A model generated the notes under the pieces. The model was not told where the DNA came from and made no database searches. It saw only the letters and a program-made list of their open reading frames with translations. A program made the position numbers and the translations under genes. Shown piece after piece: positions 22,200 through 62,456 of a DNA stretch of 64,000 bases; positions within the stretch are counted from its first letter, which is position 1; the number at the start of each line of letters is the position of its first letter. This stretch comes from Candidatus Eiseniibacteriota bacterium (lineage in GTDB: Bacteria; Eisenbacteria; RBG-16-71-46; CAIMUX01): contig CAWHYG010000008.1 of assembly GCA_963833505.1 (NCBI GenBank), forward strand, positions 151,886 to 215,885, written 5' to 3'.

Positions 22200-22821
22200 C
22201 TACTTCTCGCTGAGAGCCTCGTGGACTCGTCCCACCAACTGGGCCGACGGAGTCAGGGTCTTGTCCCCTTCATTCTTCCACTTCGCCGGACAGGCCTCCG
22301 CTTCCTTCCCGTAGAGGTACAGATTGGCCTTGAACTTCCGCATCAGCTCATCGATGTTGCGCCCCAGGTTGTAGAGGTTGATCTCCGAAGTCAGGAGAAT
22401 CCCCTTCGGATTGATGATGAAGACGCCGCGCAGGGCGTTTCCGGTCCCGGGATCGTAGACGCCGAACAGCTTCGAGATCGCGCCGGTCCGATCCGCCCCC
22501 ATCGGGTAGCGGACATCGCTCAACTCTCGCTCATGGCGCTTCCAGGCCAGAATGGACGTACTCCGTGTCCGTGCTTACGGTGACGATCTCCGCCCCGAGC
22601 TTCTGGAACTTCTCGTATTGCTCGGCCAGGGCCGCGAATTCCGTGGCGCAGACGAAAGTGAAGTCCGCCGGGTAGAAGAACAGGATGGACCACTTGCCCT
22701 TGGCCTTCAGATCGGACAGGCGGATCGTGCCGAAATCCTCCTTGAGCGGGTTGTAGACCGTGATCGTGAAGTCAGGTACCTCCTGGCCCAGGCGAATCGT
22801 TGGCAACTCCTTCCCTTCCAT
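22200..22821 (-). pseudogene. Typical 2-Cys peroxiredoxin (AhpC/Prx1-like) interrupted by a single-base frameshift near 22546-22554
   Basis: Track ORFs 22531..22821 (…FYPADFTFVCATE…VSTDTEYVHSGLEAP*) and 22200..22523 (SDVRYPMGADRTG…EACPAKW…) are two halves in frames offset by 1. Reading ...CAT(T)CTGGCCTGGAAG without one base gives the family-typical YVHLAWKRHE. Confidence 0.85.
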
Positions 22822-23270
22822 GACGGGTGTCTCCTTTTCTCACCAGCCCCCCGACGGGACCCCCTACGGCGACTCCACAAGATCGGGCCCGGCGCTCCCG
22901 ACCAGGGAAGACCGGGCGACATGCGATGACCTTAGCGCAGACTCCGTCGCCGGGAAATCCCCGCGAACGCGACCGGCAGGATCACCGCCCGCGGATTCCG
23001 CCCGTTTTCCCGGGTCGATCGCCGGCTCTTTCGCGCTCCAGCCGGTTTTTCAATCGGGAAAACGCCGGATGTCGAAACCGGCATCCTCTCGGAACCCGGC
23101 CGCCGGGTGCTGGTATGCCCCTGTTGCGCCTCTCGCCCGGACCGCAGGGCCGGGACGCAGCCAGGATGGTTCGATCAAGCATTGCAGGAGCCGCCTCCGT
23201 TCCCCGTGGACGCCGGCGGTTTCCGGCGCGCGGCGTGGACCCTCAATCCGGATCCAGGCGGCGCGCATTT

Positions 23271-23313
23271 CCGCCCCGGGTGCTCCTCCTGACATCCGGG
23301 GCGGGTTCTTTTT
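23271..23313 (+). terminator. Intrinsic terminator inside the prx / efflux-operon intergenic region
   Basis: A perfect 9-bp GC stem CCGCCCCGG (23271-23279) / CCGGGGCGG (23296-23304) with a 16-nt loop is followed by GTTCTTTTT (23305-23313). Confidence 0.6.
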
Positions 23314-23504
23314 CGGCCGCCGATCGTGCCTCTTCTTCCTGGCGACCGTTCGATCGGGATCGTTCGCTCCGGCCGGTGGCGCCGCAAGGCGCGGTGGCCG
23401 TTGCCCACGGGCGCCCTGCACCGGTTCGGGAACCGTTCAGGCTTTTCAGAGATCGTCCGCCCATCGGTCCGCGAGAAAAGGGGCTGGAGGAGAGTGGACG
23501 AAAC

Positions 23505-24881
23505 ATGGTCGAGCCGTCGCTGCCGGTCGAACGGGGTCATGGCGGAGGTGTCGCGGCTGGATTCCTGGCCCTGATCCTCGTCGCGGGCATGGGCCGGACC
23601 TGCGCCGCCGAAGCCGGCTCGCCGCCGGTTCCCGACTCTCTCACCATCATGGAGTGCGCAACCCTCGCGGCCCGCACGGCCCCCGAGGTCCGAATCGCCG
23701 TCTCCGAGCTTCAAGCGGCCCGCTTCGACTCCGCCGGCACCTCCCGGAACAGCCGGCCCCGAGTGGGCTTCTTCGCACACGCCATGGTGGCGCCGGAGGG
23801 ATTCTACGATCCCATCATCACGAACCTCGGCGAGTACGAGATCAAAGCCGGCATCGAGCTGCCCTTGAGCGACGGCGGCGCCCGCGCTCGAGCCCGGGCC
23901 CGCGCGGCGAACCAGGCCGGAAAGGCCATTTCCGGGCGGGATCAATCGACGCGCGAGGCGGCGTTGCGGGCGGCCGCCCTGGCGGCGGAGATCCTGGCCT
24001 CCCGTGAAACGGAGAGCGCGGAAGTCAGTTCCTACGGGTGGCTGAACGATCTCGCGACCTTGATTCGCTCCGGCGTGCGCGGCGGAACGAGCGGACCGTC
24101 CGATCTGCTGCGCGTGTCCTTGGAGCAGGACGCGGTGGAGGCCGCCCTGGCGGAAACGCGCGCCGATCTCGGATCCAAGGAGAGAGAGCTGGGGCAGCTC
24201 CTCGGCGGGCCGCCGGGCTCGGAACCGAAGGTCCGCCCGCCCGGGCCGAACACGGACTTCCCGCCGACGGCGGAGGACTCCGTACGGGTGGTCGCGCGCA
24301 TCGCGAGGCTTCCCGAGGTCCTTGGCAGGCAGTTCGAGGCCTTGAAGGCGCAGCTCGATCTCGCCGACGCCGAACATGCGAAGGCCCTGACGATCGGCGT
24401 TTCCGCCGACGCCGGTCTGGCCGGATCCAATCTGACGACCTTGGTTCCACCGGAAGTGCGCGCCGGGGATCCGGACGCCGATTTCGCGGATCGCCTGCGC
24501 CGCGACAAGGGCGCCTCCCTCACGGTCGACCTCGACCGCCCACTGATCGAACCGGGCGCCGGATCGGTCACGGAGGCGCGCCGCGCGGATGCCGGCGCGG
24601 CCGGTCTGGCCTTGACCACCGAGGAGGACACGCAGATGCGCGCCGCCCTCGATCTCCTGGAGCGATGGCGCATCGCCTCGCAGCGTCTGGCGGCAGCGGG
24701 GCAGACGGCGGAGCGGGCGGAGACGAATCTCCTCCGGGTCAAGAGCCTGTATGTGGCCGGCGAGCTGGGTCTCCTCGACGTTCTCGACGCGCGGCGGATC
24801 CTTGATGACGCCCGGGAACGCCTCGCCGAAGCGCACGAGGCCAGCCGGGAAGCTCGGATCGAAACGGAGGTGCAACCGTGA
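23505..24881 (+). CDS. TolC-like outer membrane efflux protein
   Basis: Track ORF 22827..24881 trimmed to ATG 23505, which has GGAGGAGAG upstream. It has a signal-like N-terminus and two long Ala/Leu/Arg-rich coiled repeat halves typical of OMF proteins. It is the first gene of the MFP-RND operon. Confidence 0.75.
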   Translation: MVEPSLPVERGHGGGVAAGFLALILVAGMGRTCAAEAGSPPVPDSLTIMECATLAARTAPEVRIAVSELQAARFDSAGTSRNSRPRVGFFAHAMVAPEGFYDPIITNLGEYEIKAGIELPLSDGGARARARARAANQAGKAISGRDQSTREAALRAAALAAEILASRETESAEVSSYGWLNDLATLIRSGVRGGTSGPSDLLRVSLEQDAVEAALAETRADLGSKERELGQLLGGPPGSEPKVRPPGPNTDFPPTAEDSVRVVARIARLPEVLGRQFEALKAQLDLADAEHAKALTIGVSADAGLAGSNLTTLVPPEVRAGDPDADFADRLRRDKGASLTVDLDRPLIEPGAGSVTEARRADAGAAGLALTTEEDTQMRAALDLLERWRIASQRLAAAGQTAERAETNLLRVKSLYVAGELGLLDVLDARRILDDARERLAEAHEASREARIETEVQP

Positions 24882-26044: not shown

Positions 26045-29000
26045 CCCGCTTCTTCGAGCTTCTCCGGATCCAGCGGCGGGCGATCTTCCTCGCGGCCGCG
26101 CTCCTGACCGGAGTCGGCGTGGCGCTCGGGATCCGTCTGCCGGCGGCGATCTTGCCCGAAGTGACCTTCCCGCGGATCAAGGTGATCGCGGACAGCGGCG
26201 AGCTGCCCGGAGAGGAAATGCTTCGCTCGGTCACGCGCCCGCTCGAGGAATCGATCCACCGCGTTTCCGGCGTGGTCGAGATGCGCTCGACGACGAGCCG
26301 CGGATCCTCGGAGATCGACCTCGACTGCCGGTGGGGATCGGACATGAACCTCGCGCTCCAGCGCGTGCAGGCGCAGATCGACGCGGTGCGCCACGAGCTT
26401 CCGCCCGAGACCACGGTCGAGGCCCGGCTCATGAGCCCGGCGCTCTTCCCGGTGCTCGGGATCTCGCTGGCGTCGAAGACCCGGAGCCTGGCCGAGCTGC
26501 GCGATCTGGCCGACCTGGCCCTCAAGCCGGAGCTGGCTCGTCTGCCCGGCGTCGCCGAGGTCGTGATCCAGGGCGGCCGAAAGCTGGAAGCGCGCGTCAC
26601 GCTGGATCCCGCGGCGCTCCAGGCCCGAGGTCTCACCGCCGCCGGGGTGGCCGACGTCGTCCGGCGTTCGAACGAGATCCGCTCCGCCGGTCTGCTCGAC
26701 CTCAATCACGAGCTCTACCTCGGGCTGGTGGATGCCAGACCGCCCGACCTTACTGCCCTGGCCGCGATCCCTGTTCCCGTCGCCGGGTCCGCGGTCGTTC
26801 CGCTGGGGGATCTCGGCCGGATCTCGCTGGAAGAGGCGCCCGAGTTCACCCGATACGCCGCCCAGTCGCGCGAGGCGGTCCTGATCAATCTGCTTCGCCA
26901 GCCCTCGGCCAGCACGATCGGGCTGGCTCGGGCGACGCGGAGATGGTTCGCCGACCATCGCGGCGTCGTGCCGCCGGACGTCAGCGTCCAGACCTTCTAC
27001 GATCAGTCCGATCTCGTGCGCTCCTCGGTCGGCAGCGTGCGCGACAGCCTGCTGGTGGGGGCGATCCTCTCGATCATCGTGATCACGATCTTTCTCGGGA
27101 GCATTCCGCTCGGTCTGGCGGGCGCCATCGTCCTGCCCGGCGCCATCGGACTCACGCTTCTCGGCCTGACCTTGACCGGCCAGACCCTCAACATGATGAC
27201 GCTCGGGGGAATCGCGGCCGCCGTCGGACTCGTTCTCGATGACGCCATCGTCGTGGTCGAACACCTGGCCCATCGGGCGGAGAGCCGCCGAGAGGTGGGC
27301 CGGCGATCGGCCGCGATGGGCGAGATCTTCCCTTCCCTGGTCGGGTCGAGCCTCTGCACGATCGCCATCTTTGGACCTTTCACGATGCTCGGAGGCGTCA
27401 CCGGCGCCTTCTTCCGCGTGCTGGCGCTGTCCATGGTCTTCATGCTGAGCGCGTCCCTGCTGCTCTGCGTCACGGTTCTGCCGATCCTGAGCCGGGTCCG
27501 GGCTCGCCCGAGCCGCCCGCCGAACGCCCCCGCGCGCTGGCTCGCCCGCGTTCTCCGGACCGTCACGGCGCGTCCCTGGGTGGCCGTCCTGCCCACGCTC
27601 GTCCTGATCGGCTCGATCGTTCCTCTCCGGTCCACCATGGGAACCGGCTTTCTTCCCGACATGGACGAGGGATCGTTGATTCTCGACTACGTGCTGCCGC
27701 CGGGAACCTCTCTTCCCGAAAGCGAGGCGCTTCTCAAGCGCGTGGAGAAGGAGATCGACACCACGCCCTCGGTCGCCGCCTGGTCCCGGCGGACCGGCGA
27801 TCAGCTCGGGTTCTTCATCACCGAGCCGAACATCGGGGACTACGTGCTGCGCCTGAAGCCGGGCCGGCGCCCGTCTTCCGACGAGATCGCGGACGATCTC
27901 CGCGGCCGGATCGAGAGTTCACTCCCGGCGATCGAGATCGAGTTCGGCCAGCTCGTCGAGGACGTCATCGGCGACCTGACGACGAATCCGGAGCCGATCG
28001 AGGTCCGGGTCTTCGGCGAGGACAAGCGCCTCGATGAAGACAAGGCCGAGCAGGCGGCCGAGATCATCGGCAGGGTGCGCGGCGTCGTGGACGTGAAAAG
28101 CGGCGTCGTCGTGAGCGGGCCGAACGTGGAGATCATGCCGGATGCGACGGCGGCCCGCCTCGGGCTCTCGTCCGAGGATCTCGCCGACGCCGTCGCGCCG
28201 GCGGTGATCGGGCTCGAGGCCGGTTTGATCCCGCGGGGCGCCCGCGTCTGGCCCGTGCGCGTCGTGCTGCCCGGACCGGCCGCCACAGGAGAGACGAAGG
28301 AGCTGGCCGGCCTTCCGGTGCCGGCGGCACCCCAACGCTGGATGAAGCTCGGAGATCTGGCCGCGCTCAAGGTGGATCCGGGCGAGACGGAGATCGACCG
28401 GGACAATCAAAGGACCATGGTCTCCGTGACGGGCCGGCTTTCGGGCCGCGATCTGGGCTCCGCCGTGGCCGAAATCCAGCAGGAGCTGCGGCGGAAGCTC
28501 GCCCTGCCCACCGAGATGAGCCTCCAGTACGCCGGACTCTGGGCCGAGCAGCAGTCCTCCTTCCGGGGCTTGAGCTCGGTCCTTCTCGGCGCCTTCGCCT
28601 CCGTGCTCCTGATCCTTCTGGTATCCTTCCGGTCCTGGAGGCAGACCGGCGCCGTTCTCCTGGTCGTGACCGCTTCCTTGACCGGAGTCTTCGTGGCGCT
28701 GCACCTCGCGAGGTCGACCTTCAACATCTCGAGTTTCGTGGGGGCGATCATGATGGTCGGGATCGTCTCGGAGAACGCCTACTTCCTGGTGGCCGCGCAC
28801 CGCAGCGCCCTCGCTTCCGGGGCCACCGCTCCGGAAGCGGCCGCGGCGGCGGCTCGCCGGCGGACCCGCCCCATCCTCATGACCACCGCGGCCGGCATCG
28901 CCGCGCTGTCGCCGCTGGCGCTCGGTCTGGGCGCGGGGAGCGCCATCCTCCGCCCGCTCGCCGTCGCGGTGGTGGGAGGGTTCCTGACTTCGGCTCCGTT

Positions 29001-29052
29001 TCTCCTGCTCGCGCTGCCGGCTCTCCTGGCTCGCGCGGGCGGGATCGAATGA
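26041..29052 (+). CDS. Efflux RND transporter permease (AcrB/CzcA superfamily)
   Basis: GTG 26041 overlaps the MFP stop (GTGA). The product is about 1000 aa with the 12-TM pattern and the conserved GIAAAVGLVLDDAIVVVEH. Confidence 0.9.
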   Translation: MTRFFELLRIQRRAIFLAAALLTGVGVALGIRLPAAILPEVTFPRIKVIADSGELPGEEMLRSVTRPLEESIHRVSGVVEMRSTTSRGSSEIDLDCRWGSDMNLALQRVQAQIDAVRHELPPETTVEARLMSPALFPVLGISLASKTRSLAELRDLADLALKPELARLPGVAEVVIQGGRKLEARVTLDPAALQARGLTAAGVADVVRRSNEIRSAGLLDLNHELYLGLVDARPPDLTALAAIPVPVAGSAVVPLGDLGRISLEEAPEFTRYAAQSREAVLINLLRQPSASTIGLARATRRWFADHRGVVPPDVSVQTFYDQSDLVRSSVGSVRDSLLVGAILSIIVITIFLGSIPLGLAGAIVLPGAIGLTLLGLTLTGQTLNMMTLGGIAAAVGLVLDDAIVVVEHLAHRAESRREVGRRSAAMGEIFPSLVGSSLCTIAIFGPFTMLGGVTGAFFRVLALSMVFMLSASLLLCVTVLPILSRVRARPSRPPNAPARWLARVLRTVTARPWVAVLPTLVLIGSIVPLRSTMGTGFLPDMDEGSLILDYVLPPGTSLPESEALLKRVEKEIDTTPSVAAWSRRTGDQLGFFITEPNIGDYVLRLKPGRRPSSDEIADDLRGRIESSLPAIEIEFGQLVEDVIGDLTTNPEPIEVRVFGEDKRLDEDKAEQAAEIIGRVRGVVDVKSGVVVSGPNVEIMPDATAARLGLSSEDLADAVAPAVIGLEAGLIPRGARVWPVRVVLPGPAATGETKELAGLPVPAAPQRWMKLGDLAALKVDPGETEIDRDNQRTMVSVTGRLSGRDLGSAVAEIQQELRRKLALPTEMSLQYAGLWAEQQSSFRGLSSVLLGAFASVLLILLVSFRSWRQTGAVLLVVTASLTGVFVALHLARSTFNISSFVGAIMMVGIVSENAYFLVAAHRSALASGATAPEAAAAAARRRTRPILMTTAAGIAALSPLALGLGAGSAILRPLAVAVVGGFLTSAPFLLLALPALLARAGGIE

Positions 29053-29108
29053 GAAAGGACGCGTTTGCCCAGCGTTGAAGGCGGGGATCCGAATCCTCCG
29101 GTGAGCCC

Positions 29109-29780
29109 ATGCGGATCCTGGTGATCGAGGACAGCCCTCCGACCCGGGACCTTCTTCGAGCGTCGCTCGATGAGACCGGGCACACGGCGATCTTCGCCTC
29201 CCGCGCTTCGAGCGCGCGGAAGGTCCTGGAGAAGGAATCGTTCGACGTGCTCGTGATCGACATCATGCTCCCGGACGGAAACGGGCTGGACCTCTGCCGG
29301 GAGATCCGCGCGCGCGGCACGACGACCCCGATCCTGTTCCTGAGCGCGCGGGGAGAGGTGAGCGATCGGATCCGAGGGCTCGACGCCGGGGGCGACGACT
29401 ATCTGCGCAAGCCGTTCGCCCTGGGAGAGCTGCACGCCCGCCTGCGGGCGCTGGCCCGCCGCCGCGGCCTGTCCCCGCCGGCTCTTCTCGAACAGGGGCC
29501 GACCCGCATCAACTTCAGCGCGCGGCGCCTCACGCGCGACGGCCAGGACATTCCGCTCACGGGGCGCGAATGGGATGTTCTCCGTCTGCTCGCCTCGCGA
29601 CCGGGCCGTCTGGTTTCCCGCGAAGACCTCCTCGAGACCGTGTGGCACGACACCGGACCCGCCGCGTCGGAGAGCCTCGATGTCATCGTGAGCCGGTTGC
29701 GGCGGAAGCTCGGCGGCGAGCCCGGGCCCTGGATTCGCACGATCCGTGGGGAAGGCTATTCCCTCGAGGTGCCACGATGA
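29109..29780 (+). CDS. OmpR-family response regulator
   Basis: Track ORF. The REC domain has MRILVIEDS...DVLVIDIMLPDG, and the winged helix ends TIRGEGYSL. Confidence 0.9.
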   Translation: MRILVIEDSPPTRDLLRASLDETGHTAIFASRASSARKVLEKESFDVLVIDIMLPDGNGLDLCREIRARGTTTPILFLSARGEVSDRIRGLDAGGDDYLRKPFALGELHARLRALARRRGLSPPALLEQGPTRINFSARRLTRDGQDIPLTGREWDVLRLLASRPGRLVSREDLLETVWHDTGPAASESLDVIVSRLRRKLGGEPGPWIRTIRGEGYSLEVPR

Positions 29781-29886
29781 GTCCAAAGTCGCCGGGGCTC
29801 CGTCCGGGACCGCGACGGATCCTTTCGGTTGCCGCCCTCAGGCATCGCCGGCCCGAGGGCGATCCCGCCTCGAGGGAGACCGGCGG

Positions 29887-31260
29887 ATGACGCCGAGATC
29901 CCTCGCATCCCGTCTGACGCTTCTCCAACAGGTGACCGGAGTGGCCGTCATCGCCGTCTTCGCCGCCTCGGCCCTTCTTTTCACCGGAAGGGCGATCAAA
30001 CGCGAGCAGGGGGAGTTCCTTCAGGCGACCGCGCGCCATCTCGCGGGCAACATCGACCTGGAATACCGGGAAGATCCGAATGTCGCGCGCGCCGCCGCCG
30101 CCGCGATGGACGAGGAGTCCGCGGTTGACGTCCGCATCGACGTCCTTGACGCGTCCGGCGAGACTCTCGTCTCCTCGCAGCGCGCACCCGCTCCCGGCCG
30201 GCCGTCCCAGCCGGGCGCCGCCGGGGGATCGCCGCCGGGGCCCTCCTCCCCGGAAATCCAGAAGGCGACGGCACGTGCCGGGTGCGGTGCCGTCGTGGTG
30301 GTCTCGACCTCGAATCGGCTCCGATCGGCCGGAATCACGGCTCTCGGTCGCGTCCTCCTCTTCACCGCCGTTCCGCTCCTGCTCATCTCCCTGTTCTGGA
30401 ACCGCCGCCTGGTGCGCCGCGCGCTGTCTCCTCTGGCGGAAATGGAACGTCGCGCGCGCGAAGCCTCGGCGGAAGAAGGCCTTCGCTCCCTGGGCCGGAT
30501 GTCGGGACTCGCCGAGATTGACGCGCTCAAGGAGTCGTTCGACCGACTGCTGGTCCGTCTGGATGATCTGCTCCAAATCGAGCGGCGGTTCACCTCCGAT
30601 GCCTCTCACGAGCTCAGAACTCCGATCACGGTGCTCTTGGGCGAACTCGAGTTGGTTCTGGGGAGCTCTGATCTCCCCGCCGATTCCCGCGCGGGTCTGG
30701 AACGGGCCTTCGAGCAAGCCGGTGCGATGCGCGACCTCGTCGACGCCCTGTTGTTGTTTCGACGCACCGGCCCCGGCGGGATCGGCTCGGCGGCCGGCCT
30801 TGAACCGGTCAACCTGGCCGATCTGGCGCGAGACCTGGGGCGGGAATTCCAGGCGCAGGAGCCCGCGAGATCCGCCGATCTCAGGGTCGCGGCTCCCGAC
30901 GAGGTTCTGGTGCCCGGGCAGCCGGCGCTCCTCGCCTCCGCCCTGCGGAATCTGCTCGGCAACGCGCTCAAGTTCTCCCGACCGGGCCAGCCCGTCCACG
31001 TTTCGGTCGGCTGCGCCGACTTCGCCTTCGTCATCGTCGAAGACGGGGGCCCCGGTATTCCGGAGGACGAGCGGGAGCACATCTTCGATCCCTTCTTCCG
31101 CGGGAAGGAGGCGCGGGCCTCGCACAGCGGATCGGGGCTGGGCCTGCCTCTGCTGCGCCGGGTCGCCCGCGCGCACGGAGGCGAGGTCACGGTCGAAGAC
31201 TCGGCCCTGGGCGGGGCGCGTTTCCTGCTGCGGCTGCCGCTTTGGCCGCCGGCGGCTTGA
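29887..31260 (+). CDS. Sensor histidine kinase (HisKA/HATPase_c), partner of the OmpR-type regulator
   Basis: Track ORF 29746..31260 trimmed to ATG 29887 (MTPRSLASRLTLLQQVTGVAVIAVFAASALLF is TM1). The H-box is FTSDASHELRTP, the N box is LLGNALKFS, and the G boxes are DGGPGIP and GSGLGL. Confidence 0.9.
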   Translation: MTPRSLASRLTLLQQVTGVAVIAVFAASALLFTGRAIKREQGEFLQATARHLAGNIDLEYREDPNVARAAAAAMDEESAVDVRIDVLDASGETLVSSQRAPAPGRPSQPGAAGGSPPGPSSPEIQKATARAGCGAVVVVSTSNRLRSAGITALGRVLLFTAVPLLLISLFWNRRLVRRALSPLAEMERRAREASAEEGLRSLGRMSGLAEIDALKESFDRLLVRLDDLLQIERRFTSDASHELRTPITVLLGELELVLGSSDLPADSRAGLERAFEQAGAMRDLVDALLLFRRTGPGGIGSAAGLEPVNLADLARDLGREFQAQEPARSADLRVAAPDEVLVPGQPALLASALRNLLGNALKFSRPGQPVHVSVGCADFAFVIVEDGGPGIPEDEREHIFDPFFRGKEARASHSGSGLGLPLLRRVARAHGGEVTVEDSALGGARFLLRLPLWPPAA

Positions 31261-31412
31261 CCGGACCATCGAACTCCCCGAGGCGCGAACCGTCCGGCGC
31301 CTTGGACGCCGGCGGCCGGATCGAGTGCCCACCGATTGCCGCAGGATGTCGCAGGACCACGCCGTGCCCCGAACGACGCCGTTCGGCGTGATCCGGCGCC
31401 AATCGATTTGCT

Positions 31413-31432
31413 TGACGCGTCATCTATTGACG
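31413..31432. promoter_or_regulatory. Candidate MarR operator/promoter: palindrome TGACGCGTCA plus a nearby TTGACG half-site
   Basis: A perfect 10-bp palindrome at 31413-31422 and TTGACG at 31427-31432 lie 16-35 nt upstream of the marR-type start at 31448. Confidence 0.3.
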
Positions 31433-31447
31433 TGAGGAGCCTGAACC

Positions 31448-31933
31448 ATGAGAACGAGCACCCTGCAGGATGAGATCAAGCAGCGCCGGCCGTTTCGGTC
31501 GGAACGCCACGAGGCGGCCGTGGCCCTGGCGCGGACGGCCGACGTCGTCCGCCGCCATTTCGCCGGAGTCCTGGCGCCGCACGACCTGACTCCCCAGCAG
31601 TTCAACGTCCTCAGGATTCTGCGGGGCGCGGGCGCCGAAGGGCTCCCGACGATGGAGATCGGGCGGCGGATGCTGGAGCGGACGCCCGGCACCACCCGGC
31701 TCATCGACCGGCTCATCGCCAAGCGATGGGTGGTTCGCGAGGCTTCGGAGGGCGACCGGCGGCGAGTGGTCTGCAAGATCACGCCGAAGGGATTGGGCGC
31801 CCTGGCGCGCGCGGACGGACCGATTGCCGACGCCAACGAGCATGCGCTGGCCGTGCTCGGCCGGGATGAGGTGCGGAAGCTGATCGAGCTGTTGCACGCC
31901 ATTCGGGCCGGACTTCTCCCCGAGCCGGAGTGA
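31448..31933 (+). CDS. MarR family transcriptional regulator
   Basis: Track ORF. LTPQQFNVLRILRGAG...PTMEIGRRMLERTPGTTRLIDRLIAKRWV...DRRRV is a winged HTH of MarR type. Confidence 0.9.
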   Translation: MRTSTLQDEIKQRRPFRSERHEAAVALARTADVVRRHFAGVLAPHDLTPQQFNVLRILRGAGAEGLPTMEIGRRMLERTPGTTRLIDRLIAKRWVVREASEGDRRRVVCKITPKGLGALARADGPIADANEHALAVLGRDEVRKLIELLHAIRAGLLPEPE

Positions 31934-31971
31934 ATAACCAAAGGGCCGTCAGGCCCGGAAAGGTGGCGATC

Positions 31972-32508
31972 ATGAGTACCCTCACCCACGCACGATCCGA
32001 CCCGGACCACTCCGCCGCGTCCGACGCGACGGCTTCCTTCGGTCGAGAGGCGCTTGGCGCCCTGGTCCGGACCTCCACCCGAAGCGCTCCCTTGGTGGCC
32101 CGGCTGGCCTTGGGCGTGGTCATGTTCCCGCACGGCGCCCAGAAGATGCTCGGTTGGTTCGGCGGCTATGGATTTCACGGCACCATGGGGGCCTTTACCG
32201 GCGGGATGCACATTCCGGCGCCGCTCGCCTTCCTGGCGATCTGCGCGGAGTTCTTCGGCTCCCTGGCCCTGATCCTCGGAGTCCTCGTGAGACCGGCGGC
32301 GGCGGCCATCGCGGTCAACATGATCGTGGCCGTGTTCCTCGTGCATCTGCCGAACGGACTCTTCATGAACTGGAGCGGACAGCAGCACGGCGAAGGTTTT
32401 GAGTATCACATCCTCGCCGTGGCTCTGGCGGCGGTCATCGTGATTCTGGGGGCCGGCCGGCTTTCGCTCGATCGACTGATCCAGGGCCGGCTGGAGCGCC
32501 GCTTCTAG
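31972..32508 (+). CDS. DoxX family membrane protein
   Basis: Track ORF 31930..32508. ATG 31972 has AAGGTGG upstream, and GTG 31930 is an alternative start. RLALGVVMFPHGAQKMLGWFGGYGF...FGSLALILG is typical of DoxX. Confidence 0.85.
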   Translation: MSTLTHARSDPDHSAASDATASFGREALGALVRTSTRSAPLVARLALGVVMFPHGAQKMLGWFGGYGFHGTMGAFTGGMHIPAPLAFLAICAEFFGSLALILGVLVRPAAAAIAVNMIVAVFLVHLPNGLFMNWSGQQHGEGFEYHILAVALAAVIVILGAGRLSLDRLIQGRLERRF

Positions 32509-32792
32509 CCGACTGAGGCCGGAGATCTCATCCGGCGGGGCGTTCTGCCGGATCAGGAGCGCCGATTCCACGCGCCATGACGCAAGTCTTGGCGCGACCC
32601 GTTGGCGGTTTCAATCGACTGTGATAGCCTGATCGGTCGCTTCGCCTCCGCGCTCGGAGGCAGCGTGGCCGGCGGGAACGGCGCGGGCCGGGAGACGAGC
32701 GATCGTGAACCGCCGCGCCGGATCCGGCCGTGCCGCCGCGAGGCGCCGGCGATCAAACCAAATCCATGAACCATCCAATCAGGGAGCACATC

Positions 32793-33341
32793 ATGCGACG
32801 TTTTCCGTTATATCTGGCAGGAGTGATCCTGGCATGCTCGGTGACCCATCTGCAGGCCAGGGCGGCTTACGGCACCCAGGCGATGGGCCAGGCGGGCACC
32901 GACCTGACCTCGACCCTGCAAGGATACGAGACCGAGATCAACCAGGCGCTCAAGAACAAGGACATCAGCGCCTTCAACGCCCATGTCGATCCGAACGCCC
33001 TGTCCGTGGACGAAACAGGATTCACCCCGACCTCCCAGTTCGCGACCATGATCAAGGACCTGGAGTGCTCGAGCTTTACCATCGAGAACTATCAGGTTCA
33101 CATGATCGACAAGGACGCCGCCGTCGCGACCTACGTCTGGAGGGGCACCGTCACCTTCAAGGGGCAGGCCGGGCCCCCAGTGACCTACTGCTGCACGGTC
33201 TGGGCCAGGCAGGGGAAGGACTGGAAGGCGATCTACCATCAGGAGTCCGCGGCCGCGGGCGGCATGAGCGGCATGGGCGGAATGAACGGCATGAAGGGAA
33301 TGGAGGGCATGGACGGCATGAAGCCCTCCGGCTCCCATTAG
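32793..33341 (+). CDS. Secreted NTF2-like (DUF4440/SnoaL-like) protein with Met/Gly-rich C-terminal tail
   Basis: ATG 32793 has AGGGAG upstream. It has a signal peptide, an NTF2-like core (…VATYVWRGTVTFKG…CCTVWARQGKDWKAIYHQES) and the tail GGMSGMGGMNGMKGMEGMDGMKPSGSH. Confidence 0.7.
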   Translation: MRRFPLYLAGVILACSVTHLQARAAYGTQAMGQAGTDLTSTLQGYETEINQALKNKDISAFNAHVDPNALSVDETGFTPTSQFATMIKDLECSSFTIENYQVHMIDKDAAVATYVWRGTVTFKGQAGPPVTYCCTVWARQGKDWKAIYHQESAAAGGMSGMGGMNGMKGMEGMDGMKPSGSH

Positions 33342-33368
33342 CAGCGACGCTGCCGGATGCCATCCGGA

Positions 33369-33390
33369 GGGGCGCCTGAACGGGCGCCCC
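33369..33390 (+). terminator. Stable GC hairpin downstream of the NTF2-like gene (weak U-tract)
   Basis: An 8-bp stem GGGGCGCC (33369-33376) / GGCGCCCC (33383-33390) with a 6-nt loop is followed by GATTCCTTCC. Confidence 0.35.
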
Positions 33391-33680
33391 GATTCCTTCC
33401 CGCCGCACGCTCCGCTTCTTCGCGCTCCGGGGCGCACGCCGCGGCGCGTGCTGGCCACTCCGATCGTGCCCCGGCCGTAGCGCGTTCCCGCCAACCCAGC
33501 CGTGCGCCGGCTACTACGTTCCCGCCAACCTGATCGCGCGTCGGCTACGCCGCGTTCCCGCCTCGATCTCCCGTCCCGCGCCGCGGCCTCCAGCTTGCGC
33601 ATCGGAATCCCCCGGTCTAGTCTGAAGGGCGGGGAACGTTCCCGCGCATCTGCGCGAATCCGCACAAGGAGGCACACCCC

Positions 33681-36029
33681 ATGAACATTTCCGGACAATC
33701 CCGCGGTCCCTGTTTCCGCTGGATGCTCCTGCTCCCGGCCCTCGCCCTGGCGGCGGCTTCTTCGGCGGCTCTCGCCGACGACTGGCCACGGCAGTTCGAC
33801 TCGGACAGCGGCTCCTTTGTGATCTACGAGCCGCAGCCGGAGACCTTGAATGGGGACCTCTTGACCGGCCGCGCCGCCTTCTCGCTGACGAAGGCCAGTG
33901 GACAGAGCCCGGTCTTCGGCGTGCTCTGGTTCACCGAGCACGTCCAGATCGACCGCGACAGCAGCACGGTGGAGGCGCGGAATTTTGACGTCACGCGGGT
34001 GCGCCTCCCGGGGATCTCGTCGGGCGATGCGCACAGCTACGAGACCCTGGTGGAGCAGCAGGCCGCGCAGTGGAACCTGTCGGGATCGATGGAAGAGCTG
34101 GAGGCCGGCTTGGCGGCCGCGGAGAAGGAACGCGCCAGTGTGGCCAATCTCGACAACACTCCGCCGCGCATCGTCTTCTCCTACGAGAAGGCGATCCTGG
34201 TCCAGTACGATGGCGACCCGGCCCTGGAGACGATCGAAGGCAGCAACCTCGAGCGCGTTTCCAACACGCCCTACGCGATCATCTACGACCCGGCGGCCGG
34301 CGATTACTACCTGAGCGGCGCGCGCCTCTGGTACACCTCGAAGGATCCCGTCGGCCAGTGGCGCAACATCCCGGCGCCGCCGCAGGCGGTGGCCGACGTC
34401 ACGCCTCCCGACACTTCGTCCACCGACCAGATCCAGGGTGCGCCGCCTGTCGTCCTCACCGCGACCGAGCCCACCGAGCTGATCTCGATCGCTGGCGAGC
34501 CGGACTTCGCGCCGCTGGTCGACGGCGAGCTCCTCTATGTTCGGAACACGGAGAGCGACGTGGTGCGGGAGGTGAGCACGCAGTCGCTCTACGTCCTCCT
34601 GGCCGGCCGGTGGTATCGCGCTCCGACTCCCGACGGTCCATGGAGCTACGTTTCCGCTGACGGCCTGCCCGAGAGCTTCAGCCGGGTTCCGGCCGATTCC
34701 CCCAAGGGAGAGATCCTGGCTTCGGTCGCCGGGACCGAGGAAGCTGACGACGCGGTGGCCGACGCCGAAATCCCGCAGACGAGCGCGATCCGGCGCGACA
34801 GCACGGACTTCCAGGTGAGCTATGACGGCGCGCCGCAGTTCGACCCGGTCGAGGGCACCAAGCTGCAGTACGCGCTCAATACCGACGCCCAGGTGCTCCT
34901 GGCCGACGGACGGTACTACGCCTGCGACCAGGGAGTCTGGTACGTGTCGGATCAGCCCGAAGGCCCCTGGAGCGTCAGCGAGACCCGGCCCTTGGAGTGC
35001 GACGACATCCCTCCGAGCTGTCCGGATTACGACGTGCGCTACGTCTACATTTATGAGGCGACGCCGGACTTCGTCTACGAGGGCTATCTGCCCGGCTACG
35101 TCGGCTGTTTTCCCTACGACGGCACCGTGGTCTACGGAACGGGGTACTATTACCGGCCCTGGAGAAGCCACCGGCACTACTTCCCGCGGCCGTTCACCTG
35201 GGGATTCTCCCCTCACTACAATCCATGGCTGAGCCGCTGGAGCTTCGGCTACAGCTACGAGTCCGGCTTCCTGCGCCCAGGGTCGCGCCGGGAATCCCAG
35301 CCGCGTTCCCATTCGGGCGCGTTCCAAAGAACCGCGCTCTGGTTCGGCCCCGGCGGCTACCACCGGCCCCTGCTCGCCGCGGATCAGACATTGCTCAGGA
35401 CGCGCACCTCGATCAGAAAAGTGCGGCGCGCCGCCGATTCGCTGCCGGTCAACATCTACAGCCGGTCGACCAACATCCAGCGAGTCAACCGGACTGCGGC
35501 ACTCAAGCCGGTGCCCGCTGTCCGCACCTATCCGGTCCGTCCGGTCAGCCTGCCCAACAACGTCTTCGCCGGGAAGGACGGGAAGGTCTATCAGCGCGAC
35601 CCGGGCGGCGCCTGGACGGTCAGCAAGGGAAAGCGATGGGTTCCGGCACGCGGCTTCAGCCGCGGGAGCGCGGCCGGTGGAAAGGCGCCAACGACCCCGG
35701 CGACAGCGAAACGCAACGTCGCCCCGCCCGCGATCCGTCCGTTCCCGATGCGGGTGCCGGCGCCGTCGCCGGTGCGGCTCCCCACAATCCGTCCCGTGCC
35801 TCCTCCGATCAGCAAGGATCCGGGAGACCTGGAGCGCGAATACCAGGCACGGGAGCATGTCGGACGCGAATCGCCGCCGGAACCGACCCCCGCTCCCAGA
35901 CCGCCGGAGGTGCGCCCGACCCCTGCTCCGGCCACTCCGTCGCCGGCCCAGCCGGCGCCGGCCAAACCCGCGCCGGCCCGTCCCGAACCGAAGCGCGAAC
36001 CGCCGAAGAAGAACGCGAACGGCCGCTAG
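33681..36029 (+). CDS. Large secreted protein of unknown function with Pro-rich C-terminal tail
   Basis: ATG 33681 has AAGGAGG upstream. The signal peptide is MLLLPALALAAASSAALA. A W-Y-x(5-7)-G-P/Q-W motif recurs (LWYTSKDPVGQW, RWYRAPTPDGPW, VWYVSDQPEGPW). An aromatic-rich YYYRPW segment and a PAP-rich tail are also present. Confidence 0.75.
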   Translation: MNISGQSRGPCFRWMLLLPALALAAASSAALADDWPRQFDSDSGSFVIYEPQPETLNGDLLTGRAAFSLTKASGQSPVFGVLWFTEHVQIDRDSSTVEARNFDVTRVRLPGISSGDAHSYETLVEQQAAQWNLSGSMEELEAGLAAAEKERASVANLDNTPPRIVFSYEKAILVQYDGDPALETIEGSNLERVSNTPYAIIYDPAAGDYYLSGARLWYTSKDPVGQWRNIPAPPQAVADVTPPDTSSTDQIQGAPPVVLTATEPTELISIAGEPDFAPLVDGELLYVRNTESDVVREVSTQSLYVLLAGRWYRAPTPDGPWSYVSADGLPESFSRVPADSPKGEILASVAGTEEADDAVADAEIPQTSAIRRDSTDFQVSYDGAPQFDPVEGTKLQYALNTDAQVLLADGRYYACDQGVWYVSDQPEGPWSVSETRPLECDDIPPSCPDYDVRYVYIYEATPDFVYEGYLPGYVGCFPYDGTVVYGTGYYYRPWRSHRHYFPRPFTWGFSPHYNPWLSRWSFGYSYESGFLRPGSRRESQPRSHSGAFQRTALWFGPGGYHRPLLAADQTLLRTRTSIRKVRRAADSLPVNIYSRSTNIQRVNRTAALKPVPAVRTYPVRPVSLPNNVFAGKDGKVYQRDPGGAWTVSKGKRWVPARGFSRGSAAGGKAPTTPATAKRNVAPPAIRPFPMRVPAPSPVRLPTIRPVPPPISKDPGDLEREYQAREHVGRESPPEPTPAPRPPEVRPTPAPATPSPAQPAPAKPAPARPEPKREPPKKNANGR

Positions 36030-52033: not shown

Positions 52034-52948
52034 ATGAAAGCACTCGCCCTCACGGCCGCCGCCCTGGCGCTCTGCGCCATCGCCGCCGCCGCGCGCGCCG
52101 ATCTCAAGGTCGCGACCGCTCTCACCGACCTGGCTTCGGTGGCCCGGTTCGTCGGCGGCCGGCACGTCGAGGCCACCAGTCTGTGCAAGGGGTTCGAGGA
52201 TCCACACTTCGTTCCGGCCAAGCCCAGCCTGATGAAGTCGCTCCAGAATGCGGATGTTTTCGTCTCCGTGGGACTGGAGCTGGACTCCGGCTGGCTGCCG
52301 CTGGTGCTGCCCGGCAGCCGCAATCCCCGAATCCAGCCGGGAACCAAGGGGTTCGTCGACGCGTCCGAAGGCGTCTCGGTCCTGGACAAGCCGACCGGCA
52401 CGGTGAGTCGGACCGAGGGGGACATCCATCCCCTGGGAAACCCGCACTATTACACGGATCCGGCCAATCTGGAGGTCGTGGCCGATCATCTGGCCCAGGT
52501 CTTCCAGGATCTGGATCCCACCAACGGAGCGGAGTACGCCGCCAACGCCAAGGCCTTCGACGCCCGCATGGAGACATCCATCGCCGGGTGGCAGAAGGAG
52601 CTGGCGCCCTATCAAGGAGCGCAGGTCGTGACCTTCCATGACAACTTCAAGTACTTCCTGGCCCGATTCGGGCTCAAGCTCTTCGGTGAGGTGGAGCCGA
52701 AACCAGGCATTCCGCCGAATCCGCGGCACACCGCGGAGCTGGCCGACGCCATGAAGAGCGCCGGCGTCCGGGTGGTGCTGTATCAGCCCTACTACGACGC
52801 CGACGCCGCCAACGGCGTGGCGCAGAAGGCGGGCGGGGTCGCGCTCCTGATCCCGACCGAAGTGGGCGGCGTTCCCGAGGCCACGGACGTTTTCAGCAAG
52901 TTCGATACTATCGTCTCCCATCTGGTCCAGGCTTTTTCCCAGAAGTGA
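52034..52948 (+). CDS. Metal (Zn/Mn-type) ABC transporter substrate-binding protein, ZnuA/TroA-like
   Basis: Track ORF 51842..52948 trimmed to ATG 52034, which has AGGAGG upstream. It has a signal peptide, DPHFVPAKPS, GDIHPLGNPHYYTDP and FHDNFKYF. Confidence 0.9.
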   Translation: MKALALTAAALALCAIAAAARADLKVATALTDLASVARFVGGRHVEATSLCKGFEDPHFVPAKPSLMKSLQNADVFVSVGLELDSGWLPLVLPGSRNPRIQPGTKGFVDASEGVSVLDKPTGTVSRTEGDIHPLGNPHYYTDPANLEVVADHLAQVFQDLDPTNGAEYAANAKAFDARMETSIAGWQKELAPYQGAQVVTFHDNFKYFLARFGLKLFGEVEPKPGIPPNPRHTAELADAMKSAGVRVVLYQPYYDADAANGVAQKAGGVALLIPTEVGGVPEATDVFSKFDTIVSHLVQAFSQK

Positions 52949-52955
52949 GGTCATC

Positions 52956-58335: not shown

Positions 58336-58367
58336 GGGAAGCGCGCGTCAGCTCGCTTTGAGGCGAA

Positions 58368-58847: not shown

Positions 58848-58868
58848 CTTGAGCCCTCCCTGGCCGGC

Positions 58869-59036: not shown

Positions 59037-59136
59037 CGGGCTAGCCACTCGCCGCCTGGAAACGCCGCCCGGTTCGGAAGGACGGCCGCCAATCTCGGAT
59101 GAGAATACCCGGGGGTTCGCGCGAAACAAGCCGAGA

Positions 59137-59395: not shown

Positions 59396-59527
59396 ACGGA
59401 ACGCGGGGGAACGGGCGGTCAGGAGTCGCGGATGAGACGCCTGTTCCGTCCGTCATGAGCCCTGCTGCGGCATTCTGTCTGCCTGAGGCGGAGTCTCTAC
59501 CTGCCACCACTCGGGTCGGAAGCGCTC

Positions 59528-61047: not shown

Positions 61048-61121
61048 GGACCTGCCTCTGGCCAAAGCGCCCTTGGATCTCTGCGTCCAGGCCACAGGTT
61101 ACCGCAGCGGGAGCGCACGGC

Positions 61122-61188
61122 GTAGTCGAGGAGTGAGGGCAAGCGCAACGCTGGCATGACCAGACGGCTCCGACGCCGCGGCAGAACC
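61122..61188. repeat. MITE-like repeat family, degenerate right-half copy E
   Basis: GTAGTCGAGGAGTGAGGGCAAGCGCAACGCTGGCATGACCAGACGG... matches the core of copies A, B and C. It lies about 75 nt upstream of the GATase start. Confidence 0.5.
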
Positions 61189-61549
61189 GTGGCGAGACCT
61201 GGCGATCAGGCGGCGGCCGGCGGCCTGGACGGCCAGGAGGACCTGAACGACCTGGAGGACCTGAACGACCGGACAGCGCGGAGCGGATGGAGCCGGCAGC
61301 CGGACCCCGACGGGTCGGATTGGGACGCCCTCGGGATCCGGAGCTGCCGGAAAACCGACATCGAATAAGATCGACGCGCTGCCCAGGGACCTTGAGTCCG
61401 AAGGGTCATGGAGCCGGCCAGCGCCGCGGTCAAGTGGGCGGCGCCCGGGCTCGCGGTCCAGCCCGCGGGCAGTCGCGGGATACGCTTCGGAGGCTCCTTC
61501 CGGCGCTTCCGGCAAGGGTAGGTTGCCGGCTGGCGCGAACCCATCTAGG

Positions 61550-62456
61550 ATGGCGCCGGAAATGGCATTTCTCGGCGAATCCGCGGCCCTCGGCACGGCC
61601 GCCCTCTGGTCGATCACGTCGCTGCTCTTCACTTTCGCGGTCACGCGGATGGGAAGCCTTGCCCTCAACCTCGTGCGGCTCACCCTGGCCGCCGCCGGCC
61701 TGCTTGCGATCGCCCTGGCCGTCGAGGGATCCGGCTGGCTGACCGGGATGCGCTGGCCCGACGCCGTCTTTCTCGCCGCTTCCGGATTCGTCGGACTGAC
61801 GGTCGGAGACTGGGTCTACTTCAAGGCCCTCCACATGATCGGAGCCCGGCAGGGGACCCTGCTGATGGCCCTCGCTCCGGCGGTCACGGTGGTGCTGGCC
61901 ATGCCGGTGCTGAACGAGAGACCGGGACCGTACGCGATCCTCGGAATGGCTCTGACCATGACCGGTGTTCTCTGGGTGGTGCTGGAACGCCCCAACGTGC
62001 CGGCCCCGGCCGGCCATCGCGTTCGCGGCGCCTTCTTCGGCGGCCTGGGCGCGTGCTGCCAGGCCGGAGGCTTGATTCTCTCCAAGCTGGGCATGCGCGG
62101 AATCGTGGGGCCGCTCCCGGCCTCCGCCGTTCGCATGACTTTCGGGGCCGCCGGGGTCTGGCTCCTGTTCCTGCTGAGCCGACGGCGCCCGGCGCTGGTC
62201 CGTCCCCTGCAGGATTCCCGGCTTCTCGCGGCGGTGATCGCGGCGTCGATCCTCGGGCCGATCGCCGGCATTCTGGCTTTCTCTGGTGGCGGTGCAGAAC
62301 ACGCAGGCCGGCATCGCGGCGACCCTCATGGCGACCGTTCCGGTGCTCGTTCTTCCCCTCGTCGTCTGGGTGCAGAAGGAATCGGTCAGCGGCCGGGCCG
62401 TGGCCGGCGCTCTCGTGGCGGTCTCGGGAGTCGCCGTGCTCTTCGTCCAAAGATGA
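61550..62456 (+). pseudogene. EamA/DMT family transporter interrupted by a single-base frameshift at 62269-62277
   Basis: Track ORF 61523..62509 is hydrophobic and DMT-like up to ...ILGPIAGI, then turns Arg/Gly-rich. The +1 frame continues (W)LSLVAVQNTQAGIAATLMATVPVLVLPLVVWVQKESVSGRAVAGALVAVSGVAVLFVQR and stops at 62454-62456. Confidence 0.8.

What the first reader, a model, noticed from the sequence alone, without database searches (positions are those of the whole stretch)
22546..62277. Every copy of the 9-mer CATTCTGGC in the window sits exactly on a +1 frameshift in an otherwise intact gene
Three genes are each split into two ORFs in frames offset by one base: the peroxiredoxin (minus strand, 22554 down to 22546), the hybrid histidine kinase (48503-48511) and the EamA transporter (62269-62277). 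In every case the junction lies on the identical 9-mer CATTCTGGC.

Deleting one base from the TT or GG run of that 9-mer restores a continuous, family-typical protein in all three. With a T removed, the junctions read YVH-LAWKRHE, TDPH-LAVWREAAL and GPIAGI-WLSLVAVQNTQAG.

In the first two genes the motif is read CAT|TCT|GGC. In the third it is read C|ATT|CTG|GC. The codon phase therefore differs, which argues against classical ribosomal +1 slippage. It favours a sequence-context-specific single-base insertion at the DNA or read level.

A given 9-mer is expected only about 0.5 times in 2 x 64 kb under a uniform model, and I found no copy outside these junctions. The one-base-shorter CATCTGGC occurs in frame and undisturbed at 50255-50262 and 52487-52494. 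CATTCTGGA (minus strand, 52242-52250) is also undisturbed.

Candidate explanations:
- k-mer-specific basecalling or polishing error, for example at a methylated motif (an N6-adenine methyltransferase gene sits at 1-1568)
- a genuine site-specific indel or recoding process
Basis: partly seen in the sequence, partly recalled or inferred. Interest (0 to 1): 0.75.

Follow-up and report, generated by a model that had tools for sequence, protein, structure and literature searches.

The report
Motif-specific extra-T assembly error
Three genes look broken at the same 9-letter word only because the deposited assembly carries one spurious extra T there, so this is a sequencing or consensus artefact and not biology.

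Summary
CATTCTGGC occurs three times in the window. Each copy sits on a +1 frame break, in a peroxiredoxin, a hybrid histidine kinase and an EamA transporter. I found no other frame breaks.

The extra T does not appear to be real. An independent k-mer assembly of run ERR11594402 (Logan) matches 42 kb of the window, and the only indel inside the contig bodies is at site 3. There it reads CATCTGGC and encodes an intact 297-aa EamA protein. At site 1 a Logan contig stops exactly at CATTCT|GG. Site 2 was not covered.

Four of 15 Logan contig ends fall exactly at CATCT|GG (p about 1e-11). All eight substitutions between the two assemblies are transitions in two fixed contexts, CAT[C/T]TGC and GC[G/A]AY. 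Each assembly appears to be wrong at some of them.

This pattern fits context-specific nanopore-type basecalling and consensus errors around CATCTG(G), possibly at a methylated motif. The platform and any methylation could not be checked.

Orthologues read through all three junctions in one frame. Verdict: artefact, low interest. The three genes should be treated as intact.

The parts
22546..22554 (-). Site 1: CATTCTGGC in a 2-Cys peroxiredoxin (AhpC/Prx) gene. One T of the TT at 22551-22552 is spurious. The repaired gene, 22821 down to 22200, encodes 206 aa.
   Evidence: ORFs 22531-22821 and 22200-22523 lie in different frames. The AhpC-TSA domain is split at model position 72-74. VHLAW is invariant in 15 homologues. 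Logan contig L001 ends exactly at G22548, after CATTCT. The 96-aa fragment P0128 is recorded from NCBI and ENA only, not Logan.
48503..48511 (+). Site 2: CATTCTGGC inside the GAF domain of a PAS-GAF-HisKA_3-HATPase-receiver hybrid histidine kinase. The repaired gene, about 47381-49928, encodes 848-879 aa depending on the start codon.
   Evidence: GAF_2 is split, model positions 2-82 and 76-135. The closest full-length homologue, P0129, is 877 aa in one frame. DPxLAxWR aligns without gaps. Fragments P0145 and P0249 are recorded from NCBI and ENA only. No Logan contig covering this site was retrieved.
62269..62277 (+). Site 3: CATTCTGGC in an EamA/DMT transporter gene. The T at 62271/62272 is absent from the independent assembly. 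The repaired gene, 61562-62456, encodes 297 aa.
   Evidence: Logan contig L003 matches window 59331-64000 at 4669 of 4670 aligned positions. The single difference is the missing T. The intact 297-aa protein P0253 exists only in Logan. EamA scores 111 bits in the intact protein against 79 bits in the frameshifted ORF.
9815..9822 (+). Unaffected CATCTGGC control, with the same 10-mer CCATCTGGCC as site 1.
   Evidence: It lies inside Logan contig L006 and is identical in both assemblies. The host gene is an intact DUF1579 protein.
42749..42756 (-). Unaffected CATCTGGC control inside an intact zinc-dependent alcohol dehydrogenase gene.
50255..50262 (+). Unaffected CATCTGGC control.
   Evidence: Logan contig L004 is 100% identical over 49058-56051.
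52487..52494 (+). Unaffected CATCTGGC control.
49053..49059 (+). CATCTGG where Logan contig L004 starts exactly after CATCT. The window sequence is in frame here.
41899..41905 (+). CATCTGG where Logan contig L008 starts exactly after CATCT.
10772..10778 (-). CATCTGG where Logan contig L006 ends exactly after CATCT.
8079..8079 (-). Transition in the context CAT[T/C]TGCTGG: window T, Logan C. It is synonymous (GCA against GCG), and the window carries the rare codon.
21047..21047 (-). Transition in the context CAT[T/C]TGCTGG: window T, Logan C. It is synonymous (TTG against CTG), and the window carries the rare codon.
32850..32850 (+). Transition in the context CAT[C/T]TGCAGG: window C, Logan T. 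It is synonymous, and Logan carries the rare codon.
27043..34302 (+). Five G (window) against A (Logan) transitions, all in the context GC[G/A]A(C/T), at 27043, 29394, 33128, 34215 and 34302. Four change Asp to Asn.
   Evidence: At 29394 the window's Asp is the conserved first D of the response-regulator GADDY motif.
3..1568 (-). Eco57I-family N6-adenine DNA methyltransferase, cut by the window edge. It is a candidate source of an asymmetric methylation motif, but no link to the errors has been shown.

Best explanation
The extra T in each CATTCTGGC is a consensus or polishing error in the deposited long-read metagenome assembly (contig of 351,737 bp). It is not a base in the organism's DNA.

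The true sequence at all three sites is CATCTGGC, and the peroxiredoxin, histidine kinase and EamA genes are intact.

The error belongs to a wider, stochastic, context-specific miscalling of the word CATCTG(G), whose reverse complement is (C)CAGATG. At this word the consensus of the same reads sometimes inserts a T after CAT, sometimes swaps C for T, and sometimes splits into competing k-mers.

Shown directly:
- The T is absent from an independent assembly at site 3.
- That assembly's contigs break at the motif.
- The substitutions between the two assemblies are bound to fixed contexts.
- Orthologues read through all three junctions in a single frame.

Inferred:
- The reads are nanopore-type.
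- The trigger is a DNA modification at this motif, possibly laid down by a type IIG-like adenine methyltransferase such as the one at 1-1568. I put this modification step at about even odds against a modification-independent k-mer bias.
For: 1. Logan contig L003 from run ERR11594402 equals window 59331-64000 except for one missing T at 62271/2. It encodes an intact 297-aa EamA protein.

2. Across 42,131 window bases covered by eight Logan contigs, that is the only indel inside the contig bodies.

3. None of the four frameshifted ORF products checked (P0128, P0145, P0249, P0250) is recorded from Logan, whereas intact neighbouring genes are.

4. Four of 15 Logan contig ends lie exactly between CATCT and GG, including site 1. 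The binomial p is about 1.3e-11.

5. All eight substitutions are transitions in two contexts. Three are at CAT[C/T]TGC, going in both directions. Five are at GC[G/A]AY, and all five lie on one contig. Codon usage (CTG 445 against TTG 59; GCG 451 against GCA 29) and the conserved GADDY Asp suggest that each assembly is wrong at some sites. This is what two consensus methods applied to the same noisy reads would produce.

6. Only one Logan sample carries this organism.

7. The repaired junctions align without gaps to homologues. VHLAW is invariant and DPxLAxWR is conserved. Pfam domains are split exactly at the junctions.

8. Published work describes motif-centred, modification-mediated nanopore consensus errors (PMC10687267, motifs GCTGG and GCAGC). 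It also describes A-to-G and G-to-A errors concentrated at methylation motifs, with alternative-base fractions above 50% (bioRxiv 10.64898/2026.01.14.699587).
Against: - The sequencing platform of ERR11594402 and of the deposited assembly could not be looked up.
- No raw reads or signal data were seen.
- Site 2 has no independent read-derived sequence. At site 1 the independent assembly breaks rather than showing the T-less allele.
- Only 3 of 7 CATCTGGC sites and none of 12 other CATCTGG sites carry the insertion. The identical 10-mer CCATCTGGCC is affected at site 1 and unaffected at 9815, so the error is not a deterministic function of local sequence.
- Published modification-mediated errors are mainly substitutions, not insertions.
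- The five GC[G/A]AY differences cluster on one contig. I explain this only by inference, as locally skewed strand coverage of long reads.
Confidence: 0.9

Rival explanations
1. The error is real as an artefact but has nothing to do with DNA modification. The basecaller or polisher model has an intrinsic k-mer bias at CATCTG(G) in this high-GC context. The methyltransferase at the window start is irrelevant.
For: The published A-to-G and G-to-A bias persists in amplified, methylation-free DNA (abstract of 10.64898/2026.01.14.699587). Only a minority of motif copies are affected, and identical 10-mers behave differently. The five GC[G/A]AY differences involve a very common word, with 499 copies in the window, which does not look like a restriction-modification motif.
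Against: Contig breaks and errors concentrate on one rare asymmetric 6-7-mer. This is the typical form of type IIG, type III or BREX adenine-methylation motifs. An Eco57I-family adenine methyltransferase is encoded in the window. Published motif-centred consensus errors were traced to modifications (PMC10687267).
Confidence: 0.4
2. The extra T is real in part of the population. A motif-targeted mutational process creates +T alleles at CATCTGGC, for example error-prone repair at a nicked or modified site acting like phase variation. The deposited assembly and the Logan assembly simply picked different alleles.
For: The two assemblies of what seems to be one sample disagree at site 3. The k-mer graph branches or ends at the motif at four places, which true heterogeneity could also cause.
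Against: - A TT/GG context is not a slippage-prone repeat.
- The three hits are in unrelated conserved genes with no other decay.
- The breaks lie directly before GG. A T-run-length polymorphism would place the branch three bases upstream.
- The accompanying differences are context-bound transitions that include unlikely Asp-to-Asn changes and rare codons in both assemblies. That looks like miscalling, not evolution.
- Breaks also occur at CATCTGG copies where the window is in frame.
Confidence: 0.04
3. The extra T is real and fixed, and expression is rescued by recoding through programmed +1 ribosomal frameshifting or transcriptional slippage at CATTCTGGC.
For: Three breaks share an identical 9-mer, and the ORFs on both sides are otherwise intact.
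Against: - The codon phase differs between sites 1-2 and site 3.
- There is no homopolymer tract for transcriptional slippage.
- Orthologues, including a 68%-identical 877-aa kinase and a 78%-identical peroxiredoxin, are single-frame at the junction.
- An assembly from the reads lacks the T at site 3.
Confidence: 0.01

Closest known systems
Modification-mediated (methylation-motif-associated) systematic errors in Oxford Nanopore consensus genomes, for example at GCTGG/CCAGC and GCAGC in Listeria (PMC10687267) or at Dam/Dcm sites (PMC6591954)
   Same: The errors recur at one short asymmetric word and survive read-based polishing. Basecalls at the word are inconsistent. The errors are accompanied by purine-purine and pyrimidine-pyrimidine substitutions. 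The affected words here, CATCTGG and TGCTGG, even overlap the published GCTGG word.
   Different: The published cases are dominated by mismatches, whereas the conspicuous symptom here is a one-base insertion that frameshifts genes. The platform, the modification and the motif were not verified here. Only a minority of motif copies are affected.
Shared nanopore A-to-G / G-to-A substitution bias amplified at bacterial methylation motifs (bioRxiv 10.64898/2026.01.14.699587)
   Same: All eight substitutions between the two assemblies are A/G or C/T transitions in fixed contexts. Some evidently exceed 50% of the k-mer support, giving SNP-like differences.
   Different: That work concerns substitutions in isolates with known methylomes. 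Here the comparison is between two assemblies of a metagenome, with no ground truth.
Homopolymer-length indel errors of long-read and flow-based platforms, which create false pseudogenes
   Same: Both give single-base indels that split otherwise intact genes and disappear when accurate reads are used.
   Different: The run here is only TT, or T before CT. The error depends on the surrounding 8-9-mer, not on homopolymer length.
Programmed +1 ribosomal frameshifting (prfB/RF2 type)
   Same: A +1 frame break at a short conserved word inside an otherwise intact gene.
   Different: There is no fixed codon phase, no conservation of the break in orthologues, and no stop codon or Shine-Dalgarno context. 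The extra base is also absent from an independent assembly.

Membership tests
Motif-specific systematic consensus error of a long-read (nanopore-type) assembly | The same error recurs at the same sequence word far more often than chance allows | tested here: met
   Three of three copies of the 9-mer lie on the only three frame breaks found in the window.
Motif-specific systematic consensus error of a long-read (nanopore-type) assembly | An independent reconstruction from reads lacks the error | tested here: inconclusive
   Met at site 3: L003 lacks the T and the gene is intact. At site 1 the contig breaks at the motif. Site 2 was not recovered.
Motif-specific systematic consensus error of a long-read (nanopore-type) assembly | Read-level inconsistency at the motif | tested here: met
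   This was tested indirectly. Four of 15 k-mer contig ends lie exactly at CATCT|GG, p about 1e-11. Three C/T disagreements occur at CAT[C/T]TGC, in both directions.
Motif-specific systematic consensus error of a long-read (nanopore-type) assembly | The sequencing platform is nanopore | not testable with these tools
   Run metadata for ERR11594402 were not available, and a text search found nothing. The platform is inferred from the 351,737-bp contig, the single Logan sample, a contig end carrying differences, and the context-bound transitions.
Modification-mediated nanopore error | The affected motif carries a DNA modification | not testable with these tools
   No signal or kinetic data were available. 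An Eco57I-family N6-adenine methyltransferase is present at 3-1568, but its specificity is unknown.
Programmed +1 ribosomal frameshift | The shift site is read in a fixed codon phase | tested here: not met
   CAT|TCT|GGC at sites 1 and 2 against C|ATT|CTG|GC at site 3.
Programmed +1 ribosomal frameshift | The frameshift is conserved in orthologues | tested here: not met
   Fifteen peroxiredoxin and 19 kinase/GAF homologues are collinear across the junction.
Phase variation by slipped-strand mispairing | A homopolymer or short tandem repeat tract of several units at the indel | tested here: not met
   Only TT and GG dinucleotides are present.
Genuine pseudogenes | Independent, unrelated lesions and further decay such as stops, truncations or relaxed codon bias | tested here: not met
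   Each gene has a single identical lesion. GC3 is 0.82-0.85 on both sides. Removing one T restores the full domain architecture.

The most novel reading that the evidence does not exclude
CATCTGG (CCAGATG) might be a site of real, motif-targeted +T indel heterogeneity in the population. This would be a new kind of site-specific mutational or phase-variation process, perhaps coupled to a DNA modification or nicking system. In that reading it reversibly switches off a peroxiredoxin, a sensor kinase and a transporter.

A milder version is that the error signature reveals a previously unknown asymmetric DNA modification motif in an uncultured, deeply branching high-GC bacterium.
Probability: 0.03. 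Interest if true: 0.85.

Novelty: not a real feature. Interest (0 to 1): 0.1.

Why it matters
The finding matters mainly for data quality. Three functional genes in a public metagenome-assembled genome are split into false fragments, and those fragment proteins are already in public protein collections.

The same word probably causes more false pseudogenes across the rest of the genome, and possibly in other genomes from the same pipeline. A scan for identical k-mers at frame breaks is a cheap way to find and repair such errors without reference genomes.

If the trigger is a modification, the error signature also points to the methylation motif of an uncultured organism. No new biology is implied.

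Tried and rejected
- **Source contig.** Exact-protein look-ups of window genes never returned the 351,737-bp source contig, only Logan contigs. I could therefore not scan the rest of the assembly for CATTCTGGC.

- **Guessed partial products at sites 2 and 3.** Modelled on the contig break at site 1, these were not on record. Repaired full-length kinase and peroxiredoxin sequences are not in the collection either. So there is no T-less Logan sequence for sites 1 and 2.

- **Homology searches.** A chimeric kinase+EamA search was saturated by kinase homologues and did not list even the known EamA proteins. A 142-aa junction query returned only short GAF proteins.

- **Other collections.** The genome-contig scan found only a 50%-identical methyltransferase in another MAG, not the source genome. 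A JGI metagenome scan for site 2, with or without the T, found nothing. A text search for the run accession found nothing.

- **Other suspected frameshifts.** The short His_Phos_1 match at 56754-57260 fits a small SixA-type phosphatase of about 160 aa, by my recollection of that family's size, and the downstream frame has no domain. The 92-aa ORF upstream of the M3 peptidase, and the open frame upstream of the peptidase's first start codon, have no domain hits. Both were rejected.

- **Alternative repairs.** Deleting T22549/T48508 or a G would give His-Ser. Homologues have Leu, Phe or Met at that position, and Logan shows loss of a T from the TT at site 3. Rejected.

- **Extended motif.** I looked for longer sequence context that separates affected from unaffected CATCTGG(C) copies and found none.


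Full report
**1. Observation**

CATTCTGGC occurs three times in the window, at 22546-22554 (-), 48503-48511 (+) and 62269-62277 (+). Dinucleotide-preserving shuffles give 0.60 copies on average.

Each copy lies where a gene changes frame:
- The peroxiredoxin is split into ORFs 22531-22821 and 22200-22523.
- The hybrid histidine kinase is split into 47288-48670 and 48513-49928.
- The EamA transporter is split into 61523-62509 and 62286-62456.

A self-trained codon-model Viterbi pass puts same-strand frame switches at 22554/5, 48497/8 and 62280/1.

Pfam shows each domain cut at its junction. AhpC-TSA covers model positions 2-74 upstream and 72-121 downstream. GAF_2 covers 2-82 upstream and 76-135 downstream.

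One point needs correcting. The shorter CATCTGGC is undisturbed at four places, not two: 9815, 42756 (-), 50255 and 52487.

I found no other frameshifted gene in the window. This rests on the Viterbi pass plus Pfam over the regions that the independent assembly does not cover, and on direct comparison elsewhere.

**2. Where the window comes from**

Exact-sequence look-ups show that the window's proteins are recorded from NCBI and ENA on a contig of 351,737 bp. Many intact proteins are also recorded from Logan. Logan is a uniform k-mer assembly of individual public sequencing runs. It discards k-mers seen only once, simplifies the graph with Minia and calls genes with Prodigal (PMC12424806).

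None of the four frameshifted ORF products I checked is recorded from Logan: P0128, P0145, P0249 and P0250.

All Logan contigs came from one run, ERR11594402. The look-ups showed no other carrier besides the source contig.

**3. The decisive comparison**

Eight Logan contigs cover 42,131 of the 64,000 window bases. They are almost identical to the window. Leaving aside differences at two contig ends (section 10), they differ by eight substitutions and one indel.

The one indel is at site 3. Logan reads GCCGGCATCTGGCTTTC where the window reads GCCGGCATTCTGGCTTTC. That intact protein, P0253, exists only in Logan.

At site 1, contig L001 ends precisely inside the 9-mer. Its first bases are GGCCTGGAAG, immediately after CATTCT. 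The next contig, L002, begins 110 bases further on.

I could not retrieve a Logan contig across site 2. L004 begins at 49058, and searches for a repaired or partial kinase failed.

**4. The same word troubles the reads elsewhere**

Four of the 15 Logan contig ends I could place fall exactly between CATCT and GG. These are at 22548 (site 1), 49058, 10773 (- strand) and 41904. With 20 such junctions in the window, the binomial probability is about 1.3e-11. So the k-mer graph of this run branches or dies at CATCT|GG, even at copies where the window sequence is in frame.

Three of the eight substitutions lie at CAT[C/T]TGC:
- At 8079 and 21047 the window has T and Logan has C.
- At 32850 the window has C and Logan has T.

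All three are synonymous. In each case one assembly carries a rare codon (TTG or GCA) where the other has the common one. Codon counts are CTG 445 against TTG 59, and GCG 451 against GCA 29.

The other five substitutions are G in the window against A in Logan. All are in the context GC[G/A]A(C/T), and all lie on contig L002. Four would change Asp to Asn. At 29394 the window's Asp is the first D of the response-regulator GADDY motif, which is present in every solved homologue aligned.

So each assembly appears to be wrong at some context-bound positions. That is expected if both derive from the same error-prone reads through different consensus procedures. The clustering of the GC[G/A]AY differences on one contig would fit locally skewed strand coverage of long reads. 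This last point is inference.

**5. Homologues**

The repaired proteins align without gaps to relatives.
- VHLAW is invariant in the 15 best peroxiredoxin hits. The best hit is 78% identical.
- The kinase junction reads DPxLAxWR in relatives. The closest relative is a 68%-identical, 877-aa single-frame protein with the same PAS-GAF-HisKA_3-HATPase-receiver architecture.

The alternative repair giving His-Ser is not seen in any homologue.

**6. Interpretation**

The extra T is a consensus or polishing error in the deposited assembly at the word CATCTGGC. It is one manifestation of a stochastic miscall of CATCTG(G), whose reverse complement is (C)CAGATG.

I did not see the run's metadata, so the nanopore-type reading is an inference. 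It rests on these points:
- a 351-kb contig from what appears to be a single run
- k-mer contigs that break at one asymmetric motif, one of them with differences from the window 22-23 bases from its end
- differences that are exclusively transitions in fixed contexts

This matches published descriptions. Motif-centred, modification-mediated nanopore errors survive Medaka polishing, at motifs such as GCTGG and GCAGC (PMC10687267). A-to-G and G-to-A errors concentrate at methylation motifs and sometimes exceed 50% of reads (bioRxiv 10.64898/2026.01.14.699587).

Whether a DNA modification is the trigger is unproven. The window does encode an Eco57I-family N6-adenine methyltransferase at 3-1568. 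From my own knowledge, enzymes of that family (type IIG and BREX PglX) typically mark asymmetric 6-7-bp words. However, only a minority of motif copies are affected, and the identical 10-mer CCATCTGGCC is hit at site 1 and spared at 9815.

**7. Rivals**

*Real population heterogeneity at the motif.* This is not excluded by what I could run, but it fits poorly:
- The context is not slippage-prone.
- The contig breaks lie directly before GG rather than at the T run.
- The accompanying differences look like miscalls.
- Breaks also occur at in-frame copies.

*Recoding.* The differing codon phases, the single-frame orthologues and the T-less assembly at site 3 all contradict it.

*Pure k-mer bias without modification.* This remains a serious variant of the artefact explanation.

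**8. What remains untested**

- the platform and pipeline
- the read pile-ups at the three sites
- site 2 in any independent data
- the rest of the 351-kb contig and the MAG
- the methylome

**9. Verdict**

The feature is an artefact.

The three genes should be read as intact:
- peroxiredoxin: 206 aa
- hybrid kinase: about 848-879 aa, depending on the start codon
- EamA transporter: 297 aa

**10. Differences at Logan contig ends**

These two differences are not counted in section 3.
- Near the 44035 end of L008, Logan reads CCTGGATAAGG where the window reads CCTGGAGTCAGG. That is a one-base gap plus a mismatch at 44012-44014.
- The last 56 nt of L009 do not match the window beyond 13868.

Noticed in passing
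window 27043, 29394, 33128, 34215, 34302: Five G (window) against A (Logan) differences share the context GC[G/A]A(C/T) and all lie on one 13.4-kb Logan contig. The other roughly 29 kb compared has none. Four would turn Asp into Asn. This is probably a second, strand-dependent miscall class, but the regional clustering is explained only by inference.
   Followed up: partly
L009 4237-4292 against window 13812-13867: The last 56 nt of Logan contig L009 diverge from the window beyond 13868. The sequence is related but full of indels. It could be a noisy graph tip, a strain variant of an intergenic region, or a local misassembly in either source.
   Followed up: partly
window 44012-44014 (end of L008): Twenty-two bases from its end, Logan contig L008 reads CCTGGATAAGG where the window has CCTGGAGTCAGG. 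These are differences at a contig end, in another CTGG-containing context.
   Followed up: no
window 18103 and 20879: Two further Logan contig ends abut the word GCTGATC, one just after it and one just before it. This hints at a second problematic, GATC-containing context in the reads.
   Followed up: no
window 59187-59252 and 59331-59397: A short imperfect direct repeat, about 66 nt at 94% identity, sits where Logan contig L003 begins. It probably explains that contig end.
   Followed up: no
window 3-1568 (-); L007 10001-11494: An Eco57I-family N6-adenine DNA methyltransferase is cut by the window edge. Its only relative in the species-representative genome set is 50% identical, in an uncultured-bacterium MAG (CAZVYN010000002.1). 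The source genome itself was not found in that set.
   Followed up: partly
window 18832-20247 (+): A full-length bacterial serpin (Pfam Serpin, model positions 2-370 of 370, E 1e-105) lies next to an ABC-2 transporter operon.
   Followed up: no
window 20940-22821 (-): An oxidative-stress cluster: the peroxiredoxin, a 213-aa secreted-type Redoxin/AhpC-TSA protein and a glyoxalase-fold protein lie in a row. A ferritin-like (Pfam Ferritin) protein and a hemerythrin lie further along, at 57385-58877.
   Followed up: no
(tool behaviour): The large protein search did not return proteins known to be in the collection and identical to part of the query: P0250 and P0253, and P0145 and P0129. Absence of a hit in those searches is therefore weak evidence.
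   Followed up: yes
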